Shown here: piece after piece, positions 50,634 through 56,631 of the stretch
Position numbering within the stretch: position 1 is the first letter of the stretch
Layout: the number at the start of each line of letters is the position of its first letter
Assembly (NCBI GenBank): GCA_943371675.1
Contig: CALRVT010000009.1
Span: 21,040-85,039 of the forward strand
Reading direction: 5' to 3'
Origin: Chitinophaga pinensis
GTDB taxonomy: Bacteria > Bacteroidota > Bacteroidia > Chitinophagales > Chitinophagaceae
Length of the DNA stretch: 64,000 nt
Translations under genes and position numbers: made by a program
The notes under the pieces: generated by a model
What the model was told of the DNA's origin: nothing
Databases searched by the model: none
Seen by the model: the letters and a program-made list of their open reading frames with translations, nothing else

Positions 50634-51602
50634 CTATTCTACAAATCTTACACCAGATTGATTGATGGTTGTAACATAGGTGTGGTGATCCAATGAAAGT
50701 TTTTCATAAACTGTTTTCATCTCCTTCTCTACATCCAGCGCAACTGATTCATCTTTACTGAGCATAAAAATGGAAGGACCAGAACCTGAAATACCTCCAC
50801 CCAATGCACCTGCTTCCTTACTCAACATTTTTATTTTATCAAATCCAGGTATGAGAATACTTCGCACTGGTTCTATTAATACATCTTCTAATGATCTTCC
50901 AATTAATTCGTAATCGCTTTTTAATAGTCCTGTTACCAATCCTGCAATATTGCCCCATTGTTTAATGGCATCTTTCAACAAAACCTGTTGTTTTAAAATA
51001 CTTCTCGCATCTGATGTACGAACTTCTATTTGAGGATGCACGATGGTAACAAATAAGGGAGGAGAGGAAAGTTGGATAATATCTAATGGAAATATTGATC
51101 GCACCAAAGTAACACCCCCAAAAATACAGGGAGCAATATTATCGGCATGTTTTACACCAGATGCTAATTTTTCGCCATTCATAGCAAATCGAACGAGGTC
51201 ATCATTCGAAAAGATATTGCCTAATAATTTGTTGGCTGCAACTACCGCACCTGCAGAACTTGCAGCGCTGGAACCTACACCACTGCCGGGTTTGATGTGC
51301 TTACAAATTCTTAATTCAAAACCCCTTTTTTCTTCCATCTCTTCCTGCATGGCCAATAATGCTGCACCTGCAACATTTAACGTAGGCTCTGTAGGTAACT
51401 GATAGGCATCTTCATTAATGATGCGGATACCTGGTTCCTCTGTAAAACAAATACTCATTTCATCAAAGGGATCATTCACTGCAAAGCCAAGTATGTCAAA
51501 CCCACAGACCATATTAGCTACCGTAGCTGGAGCATGAACAGTAATACCCCCCAGCCCCCTAAAGGGGGAGTATTGAAAATTATTATGATAACTCAATTTC
51601 AT
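50634..51602 (-). CDS. thrB: Homoserine kinase
   Basis: It has the conserved VHAPATVANMVCGFDILG motif and the GHMP kinase motif PGSGVGSSAASSA. The start is set at ATG 51602. The longer ORF to 51689 overlaps thrA. Confidence 0.85.
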   Translation of the reverse strand: MKLSYHNNFQYSPFRGLGGITVHAPATVANMVCGFDILGFAVNDPFDEMSICFTEEPGIRIINEDAYQLPTEPTLNVAGAALLAMQEEMEEKRGFELRICKHIKPGSGVGSSAASSAGAVVAANKLLGNIFSNDDLVRFAMNGEKLASGVKHADNIAPCIFGGVTLVRSIFPLDIIQLSSPPLFVTIVHPQIEVRTSDARSILKQQVLLKDAIKQWGNIAGLVTGLLKSDYELIGRSLEDVLIEPVRSILIPGFDKIKMLSKEAGALGGGISGSGPSIFMLSKDESVALDVEKEMKTVYEKLSLDHHTYVTTINQSGVRFVE

Positions 51603-51662
51603 TTTAAGGCTTTTACAATTAAAAGTTATACTAACTCCCCCTTTAGGGGGTTGGGGGGTGTA
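51545..51662. repeat. Composite palindromic element (family A): two ~28-nt inverted arms, each containing CCCCC-TAAA/TTTA-GGGGG, around a ~60-nt AT-rich core
   Basis: The left arm is TACCCCCCAGCCCCCTAAAGGGGGAGTA (51545..51572). The right arm is ACTCCCCCTTTAGGGGGTTGGGGGGTGTA (51634..51662). The arms match in inverted orientation at about 26 of 28 positions. Confidence 0.8.
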
Positions 51663-54093
51663 CTCTAATAATATCAGCAAATACGCCACTGGCAGTTACA
51701 TCTGCTCCAGCACCAGCTCCCTTGATCACCAATGGTTGTTCAGGATACCTGTCAGTATAAAATAAAACCAGGTTATCCTTACCATAAAGATGGTAGAAAT
51801 CAGAATCCGAAGGGATATGCCTTAAACCAACAGCTGCTTTGCCGTTTTCGTAGGTTGCAACAAATTTTAATTTGCAATTCTTCGCAGCAGCATCTGCATA
51901 TATTTTTTTGAAGTGATCTTCTTGCTTAGCCATCTCTGCATAAAAATCAGCAACACTTCCTTCAAAACAGGAAGCTGGCAGAAAAAATTCATTGGATATA
52001 TCTTCCATCTCCAATTGCTGTCCTGCTTCCCTTGCCAAGATCATGATTTTCCGCATCACATCTGTACCACCCAGATCAAGGCGTGGATCCGGTTCTGTAT
52101 AACCTTCATCCTGTGCCTGCTTTACTACATCAGCAAAGGGTTTGGTTCCATCGTAATTATTGAAAACAAAATTGAGGGTACCTGAAAGTACTGCCTGAAT
52201 TCGATTTACTTTATCACCACTTCTAAGCAGATCATTCAAAGTGCCAATCACAGGTAATCCTGCACCAACATTAGTTTCGAAAAGAAAATGTGCATTGTAT
52301 TCCCTTGCCAGTGATTTTAATTTCTGATAGATAGGATAACTGGAAGAGCAGGCTATCTTATTACATGCAACAACTGAAATGCTTTTACCCAACAATGCCC
52401 CATAAACCGTAGCTACTTCTGCATTAGCAGTTACATCCACAAAAACACTGTTACGCAGATTTTTACTGATGATGTGGTTAACAAAATCATGTATCGTGCC
52501 GGTTTCACCGTTCTGTAAATCTTCTTTCCAGTTAGCGAGATTGATTCCCTCTTCATTCAAAAGGATTTTCTTACTATTGGCTAGTCCAATAACTTGTATT
52601 TGTAAACGCAGATTATCCTGCAAGTATTGGTATTGCTTCGCTATTTGTCCTAATAATTTACCACCAACATTACCTGTACCAGCAATAAAAACATTTAGTT
52701 GCTTATAGGTTTTTTCAAAAAAAGCTTCATGCAAAACATTGATAGCTTTCTTTACATCAGTGCCTGATAAAACTGCAGAGATATTTTTCTCAGATGATCC
52801 CTGTGCTATGGCCCGCACATTGATACCATTTCTTCCCAGTGCACCAAACATTTTTCCACTTACACCCGGGTGACTCTTCATTTGTTCGCCTACCAATGCA
52901 ACAATAGACAATCCGGATTCTACTTTTAAAGGTTCGATGGTACCGCTCTTGATCTCAAAATTAAAGGCCTGGTCTATGGAATGTTTCGCTTTTTCGCTAT
53001 CTGCTTCATTCACACCCACACATATAGAATGTTCAGAAGAGCTTTGGGTAATCAGAATAACATTCACCGATTCTCTGGCCAAAGATTCAAAAAGTCTTTT
53101 AGAAAATCCCGGAATACCCACCATACCACTGCCTTCTAAACTTAGCAGACTTAATTTGTTAATGCTGGATATACCCCGAATAAAACTATCTGTTACTGCA
53201 GATTCATTTTCTATCAAAGTTCCATATTCATCAGGTGCAAATGTGTTTTTTATCCATACCGGAATATTCTTGCTCATTACAGGTTGAATGGTAGGCGGAT
53301 AAATGATCTTAGCACCAAAGTGCGACAATTCCATCGCTTCCTGATAGGATATGCGCTGAATGGGTTTTGCATTTTGCACCAATCTGGGATCGGCTGTCAT
53401 CATACCACTTACGTCTGTCCAGATCTCTAGAACAGAAACATTTAGGGCTGCAGCAAATATCGCTGCAGTATAATCTGAACCGCCTCTGCCAAGTGTGGTG
53501 GTATTACCATCCGTATCACCAGAAATGAAACCAGGTGCAACATATAGCGTGTGCTTATTCTCTGCAATGGCTTTTTGAATTAGCAGATCCGTTGCTAAAA
53601 AATCAACAGAAGCATTTCCATAATGGTCATTTGTAACAATGAGCTTGCGACAATCCAGCCATTGTTGATCTAACTGTAAAGCTTGAAGGGCAGCAGCAAT
53701 GATTTGAGAAGACAACAACTCTCCATAGCTAACAATTCTATCTTTTGTACGTGGCGACAATTCATTCAAAAGAAAAACACCATCACAAATTCCTTCCAGC
53801 TGGTTAAAATGCTGTTTTACCAAACTCAAAGTGGCGCTTTGCTGCTGAATGGGTAAAAGTTCCCGCACAGTTTCGAGGTGTCTTGTTTCTAATTCACGTA
53901 AATGATTTTTATACAATTCATCAGACACGGATGCCAGATAACCCAGATTCAATAATTGATCCGTTACCCCACCTAAAGCCGAAACCACCAACACGGTGGA
54001 TTCTTTCTCTAATGCTTTTTGAACGATAGCAATCACTTTATGTATGTTAGCAGCATTGGCTACCGAACTACCTCCAAATTTTAATACCTGCAT
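51643..54093 (-). CDS. thrA: Bifunctional aspartate kinase / homoserine dehydrogenase I
   Basis: The protein is 816 aa with an N-terminal kinase domain (MQVLKFGGSSVANA) and ACT domains. It has a C-terminal homoserine dehydrogenase domain (GTGNVGG). Confidence 0.9.
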   Translation of the reverse strand: MQVLKFGGSSVANAANIHKVIAIVQKALEKESTVLVVSALGGVTDQLLNLGYLASVSDELYKNHLRELETRHLETVRELLPIQQQSATLSLVKQHFNQLEGICDGVFLLNELSPRTKDRIVSYGELLSSQIIAAALQALQLDQQWLDCRKLIVTNDHYGNASVDFLATDLLIQKAIAENKHTLYVAPGFISGDTDGNTTTLGRGGSDYTAAIFAAALNVSVLEIWTDVSGMMTADPRLVQNAKPIQRISYQEAMELSHFGAKIIYPPTIQPVMSKNIPVWIKNTFAPDEYGTLIENESAVTDSFIRGISSINKLSLLSLEGSGMVGIPGFSKRLFESLARESVNVILITQSSSEHSICVGVNEADSEKAKHSIDQAFNFEIKSGTIEPLKVESGLSIVALVGEQMKSHPGVSGKMFGALGRNGINVRAIAQGSSEKNISAVLSGTDVKKAINVLHEAFFEKTYKQLNVFIAGTGNVGGKLLGQIAKQYQYLQDNLRLQIQVIGLANSKKILLNEEGINLANWKEDLQNGETGTIHDFVNHIISKNLRNSVFVDVTANAEVATVYGALLGKSISVVACNKIACSSSYPIYQKLKSLAREYNAHFLFETNVGAGLPVIGTLNDLLRSGDKVNRIQAVLSGTLNFVFNNYDGTKPFADVVKQAQDEGYTEPDPRLDLGGTDVMRKIMILAREAGQQLEMEDISNEFFLPASCFEGSVADFYAEMAKQEDHFKKIYADAAAKNCKLKFVATYENGKAAVGLRHIPSDSDFYHLYGKDNLVLFYTDRYPEQPLVIKGAGAGADVTASGVFADIIRVHPPTP

Positions 54094-56600: not shown

Positions 56601-56631
56601 TACCCCCTTGCCCCCTAAAGGGGGAATTGGG
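56601..56631. repeat. Family A repeat, solo copy (TACCCCCTTGCCCCCTAAAGGGGGAATTGGG)
   Basis: Its core is near-identical to the left arm at 51545. It lies in the ilvN-ilvC spacer. Confidence 0.7.

What the first reader, a model, noticed from the sequence alone, without database searches (positions are those of the whole stretch)
51545..51662. MITE/REP-like composite palindrome in the thrA-thrB junction that now supplies the thrA stop and the thrB start
Two roughly 28-nt arms are inverted copies of each other: TACCCCCCAGCCCCCTAAAGGGGGAGTA and ACTCCCCCTTTAGGGGGTTGGGGGGTGTA. Each arm contains its own CCCCC-TAAA-GGGGG hairpin. They flank an AT-rich core of about 60 nt. The last six thrA codons (VHPPTP) and its TAA stop are encoded by the right arm, and the stop codon is the loop of the hairpin. 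The only in-frame ATG upstream of the conserved thrB HAPATVANMVCGFD motif (51602) lies in the core. This gives ThrB a 19-aa N-terminal extension (MKLSYHNNFQYSPFRGLGG) that is partly encoded by the left arm. An intergenic repeat has therefore been co-opted into both coding ends and could couple or occlude thrB translation.
Basis: seen in the sequence. Interest (0 to 1): 0.62.

Follow-up and report, generated by a model that had tools for sequence, protein, structure and literature searches.

The report
Repeat-derived start of the thrB gene
A small palindromic repeat sits exactly between two threonine-synthesis genes and now supplies the stop codon of one and the start codon and first 19 amino acids of the other. 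This start has been kept in a clade of 17 related bacteria, which shows that 'junk' repeats can be built into essential genes.

Summary
Window 51546-51571 and 51634-51659 are 26-nt inverted arms, 96% complementary, around a 62-nt AT-rich core.

**Coding ends**
- thrA's TAA stop (51643-51645) is in the loop of the mRNA-5' arm.
- The only ATG before the homoserine-kinase core (51602) lies in the repeat core.

**The arm is a dispersed repeat**
- The genome has about 31 copies, including 12 inverted doublets; a reversed-pattern control gave none.
- In the genus the arm is patchy, and filled versus empty orthologous sites show insertion.
- About 90% of arms touch a gene's stop or start codon.

**What relatives show**
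- A Sediminibacterium clade of 17 species keeps the same in-frame ThrB extension, M-K/R-L-x-F-x-N-N-F-F-Y-S-P.
- Conservation starts at the ATG, and synonymous Ser/Pro changes erase the C-run. The extension is therefore translated, and the insertion is old.
- The thrA stop inside the arm is new. An 11-nt deletion specific to this genome replaced -AR* with -HPPTP*.

**Origin of the family**
- No RAYT link was found.
- In a congener and three metagenome contigs, the same arms bracket a DUF559 nuclease gene between umuD and umuC.
- This genome keeps only a gene-less remnant at that site.

Translational coupling or occlusion by the arm-arm stem is inference only.

Verdict: a new variant of the REP/MITE/RPE kind.

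The parts
51634..51659 (-). mRNA-5' arm of the doublet (consensus ACCCCCYAGCCCCCTRAAGGGGGART). It encodes thrA's last five codons (HPPTP) and the stop.
   Evidence: nhmmer E = 3e-7 against the arm profile built from the genome's copies.
51643..51645 (-). thrA TAA stop codon, inside the TAAA loop of the arm's own C5/G5 hairpin.
51572..51633 (-). AT-rich core of the doublet. On the mRNA it forms the large loop closed by the arm-arm stem.
   Evidence: Cores are not conserved between copies of the family.
51600..51602 (-). thrB start codon (ATG), preceded by A-rich sequence (AAAAGCCTTAAA).
   Evidence: It is the only in-frame ATG. An orthologous ATG is conserved in 17 species, with a sharp conservation boundary at the ATG.
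51546..51571 (-). mRNA-3' arm of the doublet, translated as ..YSPFRGLGG within the ThrB N-terminal extension.
51546..51602 (-). 19-codon ThrB N-terminal extension (MKLSYHNNFQYSPFRGLGG), lying outside the homoserine kinase family profile.
   Evidence: The NCBIfam profile starts at residue 21.
51643..54093 (-). thrA, bifunctional aspartate kinase / homoserine dehydrogenase I.
   Evidence: NF006959, 1046 bits.
50634..51602 (-). thrB, homoserine kinase, counted from the ATG in the repeat core.
   Evidence: NF002288, 377 bits.
56601..56628 (+). Single arm of the same family between ilvN (acetolactate synthase small subunit) and ilvC in the same operon.

Best explanation
**What it is**
- The 114-nt element is a gene-less inverted doublet of a dispersed repeat.
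- Each arm is an outer C-run followed by a C5/G5 hairpin, about 27 nt in all.
- In its full form, two such arms in inverted orientation bracket a small DUF559 (Vsr-like) nuclease gene. Doublets without the gene are derivatives of that form.

**History at the thrA-thrB junction**
- A doublet entered the tight thrA-stop / thrB-start junction in an ancestor of one Sediminibacterium sub-clade.
- An ATG in its AU-rich core was in frame with thrB through the second arm. It became the thrB start, and several lineages, including this one, then lost the original ATG just after the arm.
- The extension MKLxFxNNFFYSP... has since been kept as protein while the palindrome decayed in most lineages.
- In this genome alone, an 11-nt deletion then fused thrA to the first arm. 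thrA now ends HPPTP, with TAA in the hairpin loop.

**Inferred mechanism (not shown)**
- On the mRNA the two arms pair into a 26-bp stem, with the thrB start in an open loop.
- Ribosomes finishing thrA melt the 5' arm. This could couple thrB translation to thrA translation.
For: **Repeat family**
- The genome has 31-33 arms and 12 doublets, always with the C-runs outermost. The reversed-pattern control gave 0.
- Of the 25 genomes searched in this genus, only three carry arms: G000, G018 and G022.

**Insertion shown by filled versus empty orthologous sites**
- At the C4 locus the empty site reads 'AGC TAATG ATG' and the filled site reads 'AGT TAA[doublet]TAAAC ATG'.
- At the C61 locus the empty site has a 17-nt spacer.

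**Gene-end hugging**
- 20 of 32 arms have an ORF of at least 100 codons ending within 13 nt of the outer C-run. In four of these the stop lies inside the arm.
- 10 arms have an ORF start 1-15 nt outside the arm.

**thrB start**
- All 17 species of one clade (ThrB tree) carry the in-frame extension, 17 to 29 codons long.
- Entropy is 1.68 bits upstream of the ATG. At codon positions 1, 2 and 3 it is 0.53, 0.60 and 0.90 bits.
- Ser12 is TCC/TCT/TCA/TCG and Pro13 is CCC/CCT/CCG/CCA.
- The homoserine kinase profile starts at residue 21.

**thrA end**
- All four sister taxa end ADIIRVAR*, 2-16 nt before the arm.
- The window lacks those 11 nt.

**DUF559 link**
- Arms bracket a 147-aa DUF559 gene (107.6 bits) between umuD and umuC in congener G018.
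- The same layout is seen in 3 of 3 contigs looked up for homologues at 88%, 56% and 50% identity.
- G000's umuD|umuC junction holds a doublet whose core matches the DUF559 5' end, z = 3.7-7.1 in three of the four comparisons (2.3 against G018).
- In the genus, a full-strength DUF559 hit occurs only in G018 and G022, two of the three arm-bearing genomes.

**RNA fold**
-.
Against: - No transcript, ribosome or protein data exist for this organism, so the thrB start and any coupling effect are inferred.
- The thr doublet's core shows no significant similarity to DUF559 or to other doublet cores (z no higher than 2.3). Its descent from a DUF559 cassette rests on the arms alone.
- This genome has no DUF559 gene, so no mobilising enzyme is present now.
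- DUF559 is always found at the same umuD-umuC site. It could therefore be a resident operon gene rather than the repeat's transposase.
- The arms have decayed in most relatives. This argues that the RNA stem is not under strong selection.
- The AlphaFold model was too poor (pLDDT 44) to show whether the extension is structured.
Confidence: 0.72

Rival explanations
1. The doublet is a neutral passenger. It is a dead repeat that landed in a tolerated spot. The extension persists only because it carries the sole start codon and must stay in frame. Neither the RNA stem nor the peptide has any function.
For: - The arms have decayed in 12 of the 17 species that carry the extension.
- The extension evolves faster than the enzyme core.
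- Doublets of the family sit harmlessly even between rplF and rplR.
- No mobilising gene remains in this genome.
Against: - Leu3 is nearly invariant and Pro13 is invariant.
- Phe/Tyr at positions 5, 9, 10 and 11 are mostly kept.
- Synonymous changes at Ser12 and Pro13 point to selection on the amino acids, not only on the frame.
- Conservation drops abruptly upstream of the ATG.
Confidence: 0.3
2. The doublet is a functional RNA element inside the operon. It would be a processing or stabilising hairpin, or a partial terminator, that sets the thrA : thrB/thrC expression ratio, as REP/BIME elements do in enterobacterial operons.
For: - The stem is very stable (-69 kcal/mol, z = -6.3).
- A stop codon within or next to the hairpin is the family's usual layout.
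- Other, unrelated hairpins occupy the same junction in relatives L037 and L041-L044.
- The simple scan finds one weak terminator-like site at the 3' arm.
Against: - No proper U-tract follows the stem.
- The arms are not maintained in most of the clade.
- Doublets lie inside ribosomal-protein operons, where termination would be harmful.
- There are no expression data.
Confidence: 0.15
3. thrB does not start at ATG 51602. It starts at a non-canonical codon after the second arm (for example ATT 51545), or by re-initiation, and the extension is not part of the protein.
For: - Element-free relatives have ThrB N-termini only 3-7 residues before the conserved core.
- Some element-bearing relatives keep an ATG or GTG just after the arm: L031, L039, L040 and L042-L044.
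Against: - In the window and in L033, L036, L037, L041, L051 and L058 there is no ATG, GTG or TTG after the arm.
- The frame from the core ATG is open in all 17 species, despite at least six different lengths.
- Codon-position periodicity begins at that ATG.
Confidence: 0.07

Closest known systems
REP / REPIN elements (repetitive extragenic palindromes and their inverted doublets, mobilised by RAYT; PMC3116915, PMC3337134, PMC2817692)
   Same: - Short GC-rich palindromic unit of about 27 nt.
- Occurs singly and as inverted doublets around a spacer of 50-110 nt that is variable in this family.
- Intergenic, at gene ends.
- Patchy between species, with species-specific variants at orthologous sites.
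   Different: - None of the five Y1/RAYT-like genes of this genome is flanked by these arms; they carry other hairpins.
- Copy number is low, about 30.
- The arm has a third C/G run (hairpin plus run).
- The gene found between arms in relatives is a DUF559 nuclease, not a tyrosine transposase.
Rickettsia palindromic elements (RPE) and other MITEs that make in-frame fusions with host genes (review PMC10969869)
   Same: A palindromic repeat that is translated as part of an essential metabolic enzyme. The arm is open in most frames and encodes Pro/Gly-rich peptide.
   Different: - Here the repeat supplies the start codon and the N-terminus of one gene and the stop of its neighbour, rather than an internal loop.
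- The host is a free-living member of the Bacteroidota.
- The family prefers stop/start junctions rather than gene interiors in this genome.
Correia/NEMIS, ERIC and BOX-type bacterial MITEs (review PMC10969869)
   Same: - About 100-150-bp foldback elements with terminal inverted repeats.
- TA-rich flanks.
- Located inside operons, where they fold on the mRNA and can change expression of neighbours.
   Different: - Their internal sequence is conserved between copies, whereas here only the arms are.
- No promoter, IHF site or RNase III evidence was found here.
REP-type hairpins close to stop codons that stall terminating ribosomes and lower expression of the upstream gene in E. coli (from my own knowledge; paper not in the searchable library)
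   Same: A stable hairpin starts within a few nucleotides of, or overlaps, the stop codon of the upstream gene.
   Different: This has not been tested in Bacteroidota. Here the hairpin's partner arm lies in the coding region of the next gene.

Membership tests
REP/REPIN-RAYT system | Short imperfect palindrome present in many copies, mostly outside genes | tested here: met
   31-33 arms at or beyond gene ends (about 90% touch a stop or start codon), with 0 in the reversed-pattern control. Copy number is low for a REP family.
REP/REPIN-RAYT system | Inverted doublets (REPINs) as the common unit | tested here: met
   12 doublets, all in the same relative orientation, with spacers of about 50-110 nt.
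REP/REPIN-RAYT system | A RAYT (Y1 transposase) gene flanked by the same REP | tested here: not met
   Five complete PF01797 genes were found. None lies near an arm, and all are flanked by other hairpins.
MITE (miniature inverted-repeat transposable element) | Terminal inverted repeats on a short non-coding element | tested here: met
   26-nt arms, 96% complementary.
MITE (miniature inverted-repeat transposable element) | Target-site duplication and empty sites in relatives | tested here: inconclusive
   Empty sites were found at two loci. TAA is duplicated at the C4 locus, but there is no clean duplication at the C61 locus. The flanks are usually TA, TAA or TTAA.
MITE (miniature inverted-repeat transposable element) | Copies share internal sequence derived from a parent IS with matching ends | tested here: not met
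   Cores are unrelated between copies (z no higher than 2.3). No transposase with these ends was found. The gene between arms in relatives is DUF559.
RPE-like in-frame coding palindromes | The repeat is translated in frame as part of a functional host protein | tested here: met
   The second arm is read as YSPFRGLGG in ThrB. Frame and codon periodicity are conserved in 17 species. This is comparative evidence only, with no protein data.
Arm-DUF559-arm cassette (a lead from earlier notes of this scan; I found no published description) | The same arms, in inverted orientation, bracket a PF04480 gene | tested here: met
   Seen in G018:C2 and in contigs L193, L194 and L195-L198. It is not met in this genome, which has no PF04480 gene and only a remnant at umuD|umuC.
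Arm-DUF559-arm cassette (a lead from earlier notes of this scan; I found no published description) | DUF559 acts on the arms (binding, cleavage or mobilisation) | not testable with these tools
   This needs biochemistry or mobilome sequencing.
Intrinsic terminator / attenuator | GC-rich stem followed by a U-tract; for an attenuator, a leader peptide with regulatory codons | tested here: not met
   There is no U-tract after the stem. The extension has no Thr or Ile codon run.

The most novel reading that the evidence does not exclude
- The hairpin-plus-run arms and the DUF559 nuclease gene they bracket may form an undescribed selfish DNA system. Its home would be inside the SOS-regulated umuDC operon of Chitinophagia.
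- DNA damage would induce the nuclease, and gene-less doublets would be copied to new sites.
- Doublets survive almost only at exact stop/start junctions. There the arm-arm stem brings the stop and the next start codon back together on the mRNA, so translational coupling is kept.
- On this reading, the thr locus is a case of domestication: the element's own start region became the start of an essential gene.
Probability: 0.25. Interest if true: 0.8.

Novelty: new variant of a known kind. Interest (0 to 1): 0.58.

Why it matters
**Gene annotation**
- A dispersed palindromic repeat can become the start codon and N-terminus of an essential biosynthetic enzyme and then be kept for a long time.
- Gene callers that trim to family profiles would mis-place such starts. 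Here the homoserine kinase profile begins at residue 21.

**Rules of tolerance**
- The family's near-exclusive placement at stop and start codons, even inside ribosomal-protein operons, suggests a rule for how hairpin repeats are tolerated in the tightly packed, Shine-Dalgarno-poor operons of Bacteroidota.

**DUF559**
- The repeated finding of the same arms around a DUF559 gene between umuD and umuC gives a very large family of unknown function a concrete, testable substrate and a regulatory context, the SOS response.

Tried and rejected
- **RAYT link:** five Y1_Tnp genes were found, none flanked by the arms. Rejected.
- **Rfam:** the only hit was a meaningless sub-threshold match to a plant miRNA precursor, 29.9 against 110 bits. 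Rejected.
- **thr core as a DUF559 remnant:** the idea was that the thrB ATG is the old DUF559 ATG. The reading frame through the arm is the same as in DUF559 C-termini, but the core shows no significant similarity (z no higher than 2.3). Not supported and left open.
- **AlphaFold2 of ThrB with the extension, from a 17-sequence alignment:** mean pLDDT 44, so uninformative.
- **Literature search for the arm motif and its peptide translations:** no paper found. DUF559 plus palindromic repeat: nothing relevant.
- **Sequencing runs:** only DNA metagenome contigs were available. They confirm the assembly, and two runs hold a contig from a related strain with a 75-nt stretch in place of the 105 nt spanning the core and its inner arm hairpins, but there is no RNA.
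- **Late gain of arms on a pre-existing extension:** this is more parsimonious on the tree. I rejected it because degenerate remnants of both arms survive outside the intact-arm clade (L038-L040, L036, L037), and because the peptide SPFRGLGG is the literal translation of a repeat found at 30 other loci.
- **Clean target-site duplication:** not settled.

Full report
**1. Observation**

On the minus (coding) strand the sequence reads:

...ATT ATT AGA GTA CAC CCC CCA ACC CCC TAA AGGGGGAGT-[core]-ATG AAA TTG AGT TAT CAT AAT AAT TTT CAA TAC TCC CCC TTT AGG GGG CTG GGG GGT ATT ACT GTT CAT GCT CCA GCT....

- The two arms (51546-51571 and 51634-51659) are 26 nt, 96% complementary and 62 nt apart.
- The 14-mer CCCCCTAAAGGGGG occurs three times in the window against 0.01 expected.
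- NCBIfam identifies the flanking genes as thrA (bifunctional aspartate kinase/homoserine dehydrogenase I, 1046 bits), thrB (homoserine kinase, 377 bits) and thrC.
- The ThrA profile ends at residue 812 of 816, and the ThrB profile starts at residue 21 of the 322-residue protein. The arm-derived tail and the 19-residue extension therefore both lie outside the families' conserved bodies.
- ATG 51602 is the only ATG in frame upstream of HAPATVANM.
- A contig from the likely source metagenome reproduces the junction, but this is not independent evidence.

**2. The arm is a dispersed repeat**

- The whole genome (4.04 Mb, 69 contigs, 38% G+C) holds 29 exact C5-N4-G5 hairpins that share one flanking pattern.
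- An nhmmer profile finds 32 arms at E < 1e-3. The degenerate pattern finds 31, against 0 for the reversed control.
- The consensus is T(A/T)ACCCCC(C/T)(A/T)(A/G)CCCCCT(A/G)AAGGGGGA(A/G)T: an outer C-run, a 3-nt spacer, then a C5/G5 hairpin.
- Twelve pairs form inverted doublets, always with the C-runs outermost. Their cores are 50-110 nt and unrelated in sequence.
- Only the arm is the repeat unit, so this is the REP/REPIN layout and not that of a classic MITE.

**3. Evidence of insertion**

- Among the 25 genomes of the genus searched, only this genome (G000), G018 and G022 carry arms. One genome of another family (G034) also does.
- Two doublets were compared with orthologous sites.
  - *C4 locus.* Five relatives read ...AGC TAATG ATG AAC..., with stop and start overlapping. 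This genome reads ...AGT TAA[doublet]TAAAC ATG AAT...
  - *C61 locus.* Four relatives have a 17-nt spacer (TAA TTAAGTT ATG). This genome has the doublet. G041 has arms with a different core, and there the upstream gene ends inside the arm (ACC CCC TGA). G022 and G042 carry other fillers.
- The flanks are usually TA, TAA or TTAA. TAA is duplicated at the C4 locus, but I could not establish a clean target duplication.

**4. The family hugs gene ends**

- Of 32 arms, 20 have an ORF of at least 100 codons ending within 13 nt of the outer C-run.
  - In eight, a TAA abuts the run directly.
  - In four, including thrA, the stop lies inside the arm, either in the YAG spacer or in the hairpin loop.
- Ten arms have an ORF start 1-15 nt outside the arm.
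- Doublets sit between rplF and rplR, an arm abuts the rpsJ stop, and a single arm lies between ilvN and ilvC in this same operon.
- The arm is open in four or five of its six frames. In the others it offers a stop within a few codons. A gene that runs into it therefore gains only a few Pro/Gly-rich residues.

**5. What relatives show at thrA|thrB**

Eighty loci were fetched with ThrB; they place the window among Sediminibacterium (Chitinophagaceae) genomes. Together with the window they give the tree.

*Element-free relatives*
- The junction is tight, from a 4-nt overlap to a few tens of nt.
- ThrB starts 3-7 residues before the conserved core.

*The clade with the extension*
- An 18-row clade includes the window. 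The window and 16 of the other rows, 17 species in all, carry an in-frame M-K/R-L-x-F-x-N-N-F-F-Y-S-P... extension; the remaining row, L056, reads MDQSS... instead.
- The distance from this ATG to the core is 17, 19, 20, 21, 25, 26 or 29 codons, always a multiple of three.
- Intact arms survive only in the window's five-row clade. Elsewhere they are degenerate, but remnants of both arms are still visible (L038-L040), so the ancestor had the full doublet.

*Evidence that the extension is translated*
- Anchored at the ATG, the 36 nt upstream are essentially unconserved (1.68 bits).
- The 13 gap-free codons have entropies of 0.53, 0.60 and 0.90 bits at positions 1, 2 and 3.
- Ser12 appears as TCC/TCT/TCA/TCG and Pro13 as CCC/CCT/CCG/CCA. 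These synonymous changes destroy the C-run but keep the residues.
- I take this as good comparative evidence that the extension is translated from this ATG and that the protein, not the palindrome, is what is conserved.

*Fate of the original start*
- Several relatives (L031, L039, L040, L042-L044) still have an ATG directly after the second arm. This is the usual place for a start in this family.
- The window, L033, L036, L037, L041, L051 and L058 have lost it; L035 keeps only a GTG one codon before the core.
- The likely order is insertion between stop and start, then use of the core ATG, then loss of the native ATG.

*Other acquisitions at the same junction*
- A second clade (Parafilimonas L100, L073, L087, Parasediminibacterium paludis L088) and L045 carry other arm variants at the same junction. 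They are read in another frame and again have the only ATG in the core.
- In L088 the thrA stop also lies in the arm (VTAP*).
- The junction has therefore been hit at least twice, probably three times.

**6. The thrA end is recent**

- All four sister taxa end ...ADIIRVAR*, with the stop 2-16 nt before the arm.
- The window lacks 11 nt (GCGAGATAAGA in L033). It reads straight into the arm, giving ...ADIIRV-HPPTP-TAA.

**7. Origin of the family**

*No RAYT link*
- Five RAYT-like Y1 genes exist in this genome, but they are flanked by other hairpins.

*DUF559 link, followed from earlier notes of this scan*
- This genome has no PF04480 (DUF559) gene.
- In congener G018 an arm, a 147-aa DUF559 gene (107.6 bits) and an inverted arm lie between umuD and umuC.
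  - umuD ends HPTP* in the first arm.
  - The DUF559 C-terminus (..YNSPFRGLGGGGV) is read from the second arm.
  - The umuC ATG follows at once.
- Homologues at 88%, 56% and 50% identity, in three of three look-ups, show the same umuD-arm-DUF559-arm-umuC layout.
- Further homologues end in arm-encoded peptides.
- In this genome the umuD|umuC junction holds a doublet (C2:171789-171900). Its core matches the 5' end of those DUF559 genes: z = 3.7-7.1 against three of the four, with at most 1 of 300 shuffles as good, and z = 2.3 against G018. It is a deletion remnant.
- Within the genus, full-strength DUF559 hits occur only in G018 and G022, two of the three arm-bearing genomes.
- DUF559 genes in other genomes are flanked by their own hairpin-plus-run units.
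- The thr doublet's core shows no such similarity (z no higher than 2.3). Its descent from a cassette is therefore inferred from the arms alone.
- DUF559 is always at one site. It may be a resident operon gene and not a transposase.

**8. Mechanism**

*Shown*
- The repeat identity of the arms.
- Insertion polymorphism of the family.
- The positions of the stop and start codons.
- Comparative evidence for translation of the extension.
- The lineage-specific deletion at the thrA end.

*Inferred*
- On the mRNA the arms form a 26-bp stem (-69 kcal/mol, z = -6.3). The thrB ATG then sits in a 62-nt AU-rich loop, preceded by A-rich sequence. This context should suit initiation in Bacteroidota, which rarely use Shine-Dalgarno pairing (my own knowledge).
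- A ribosome ending thrA must unwind the 5' arm, which would free the 3' arm that the thrB ribosome has to read.
- This could couple the two genes. Alternatively the hairpin could slow thrA termination.
- Against a strong role, most relatives have let the arms decay.
- No canonical terminator is present.

**9. Comparison and novelty**

- In-frame MITE/RPE fusions and REP doublets are known (PMC10969869, PMC3116915, PMC3337134).
- New here are four things:
  - a start codon and N-terminus taken from the repeat and kept across a clade;
  - a family that lives almost only at stop/start junctions;
  - the lack of a RAYT;
  - the recurrent DUF559 partner inside umuDC.
- I found no paper containing the motif or this link.
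- I class it as a new variant of a known kind, with moderate interest.

Noticed in passing
G018:C2:24289-24758 (L171 390-859); L193 1481-1956; L194 1445-1929; L195 1469-1932: A DUF559 (PF04480) gene bracketed by the same inverted arms lies between umuD (Peptidase_S24) and umuC (IMS) in four divergent genomes or contigs. umuD often ends HPTP* inside the arm. This may point to an SOS-controlled nuclease tied to the repeat.
   Followed up: partly
own genome C2:171789-171900 (outside the window): The umuD|umuC junction of this genome holds a gene-less doublet whose core is a remnant of the DUF559 5' end (MKRNMFYDA...). umuD ends IHPLAP* with its stop in the hairpin loop, as thrA does.
   Followed up: yes
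window 56601-56628: A single arm of the same family lies between ilvN (acetolactate synthase small subunit) and ilvC, 14 nt from the ilvC start.
   Followed up: partly
own genome C26:40540-40625 and C26:48978-49116: One doublet sits between ribosomal protein genes rplF and rplR, and another abuts the rpsJ stop. The element is therefore tolerated inside highly expressed, essential operons.
   Followed up: partly
G034:C1:467700-472500 (L145) and similar places 2.7 kb apart: In a genome of another family, arm pairs lie in frame inside tandem paralogous genes for secreted proteins (..NPPQPLQGGE..LQVYPNPAQNTLTF..TPPSGGWGV..). They flank what looks to me like the start of a type IX secretion C-terminal domain (not checked against a domain library).
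   Followed up: partly
L037 and L042-L044 (thrA-thrB junction of relatives); G022:C49:7400-8450 (L187): A second composite hairpin unit (CACCCC..GTCGAC-CCTCCC..GGGAGGG type) has entered the same thr junction in some relatives. A similar unit flanks the DUF559 gene of G022 on both sides in direct orientation.
   Followed up: no
own genome C9:119211-119678, C13:106836-107261, C17:35695-36156, C3:28080-28508, C36:31015-31491: Five RAYT-like Y1 transposase genes of about 140-160 aa are each surrounded by short hairpins of other families (for example GCCACAGCCTTCAGGCTGTGG, CCCCATCTTGAAAGATGGGG). The genome therefore hosts several separate palindrome families.
   Followed up: partly
L100 (Parafilimonas MAG) thrA-thrB junction: In this arm variant the outer run CCCCTCC is the mirror image of the hairpin strand CCTCCCC. 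This is expected for an intrastrand triplex motif. It is only a single case.
   Followed up: no
window 51536-51642, runs X2 and X4: Metagenome contigs from other freshwater sediments match both flanks but carry 75 other letters in place of the 105 nt that span the core and the inner hairpins of both arms. This suggests that the interior of the element turns over between strains.
   Followed up: no
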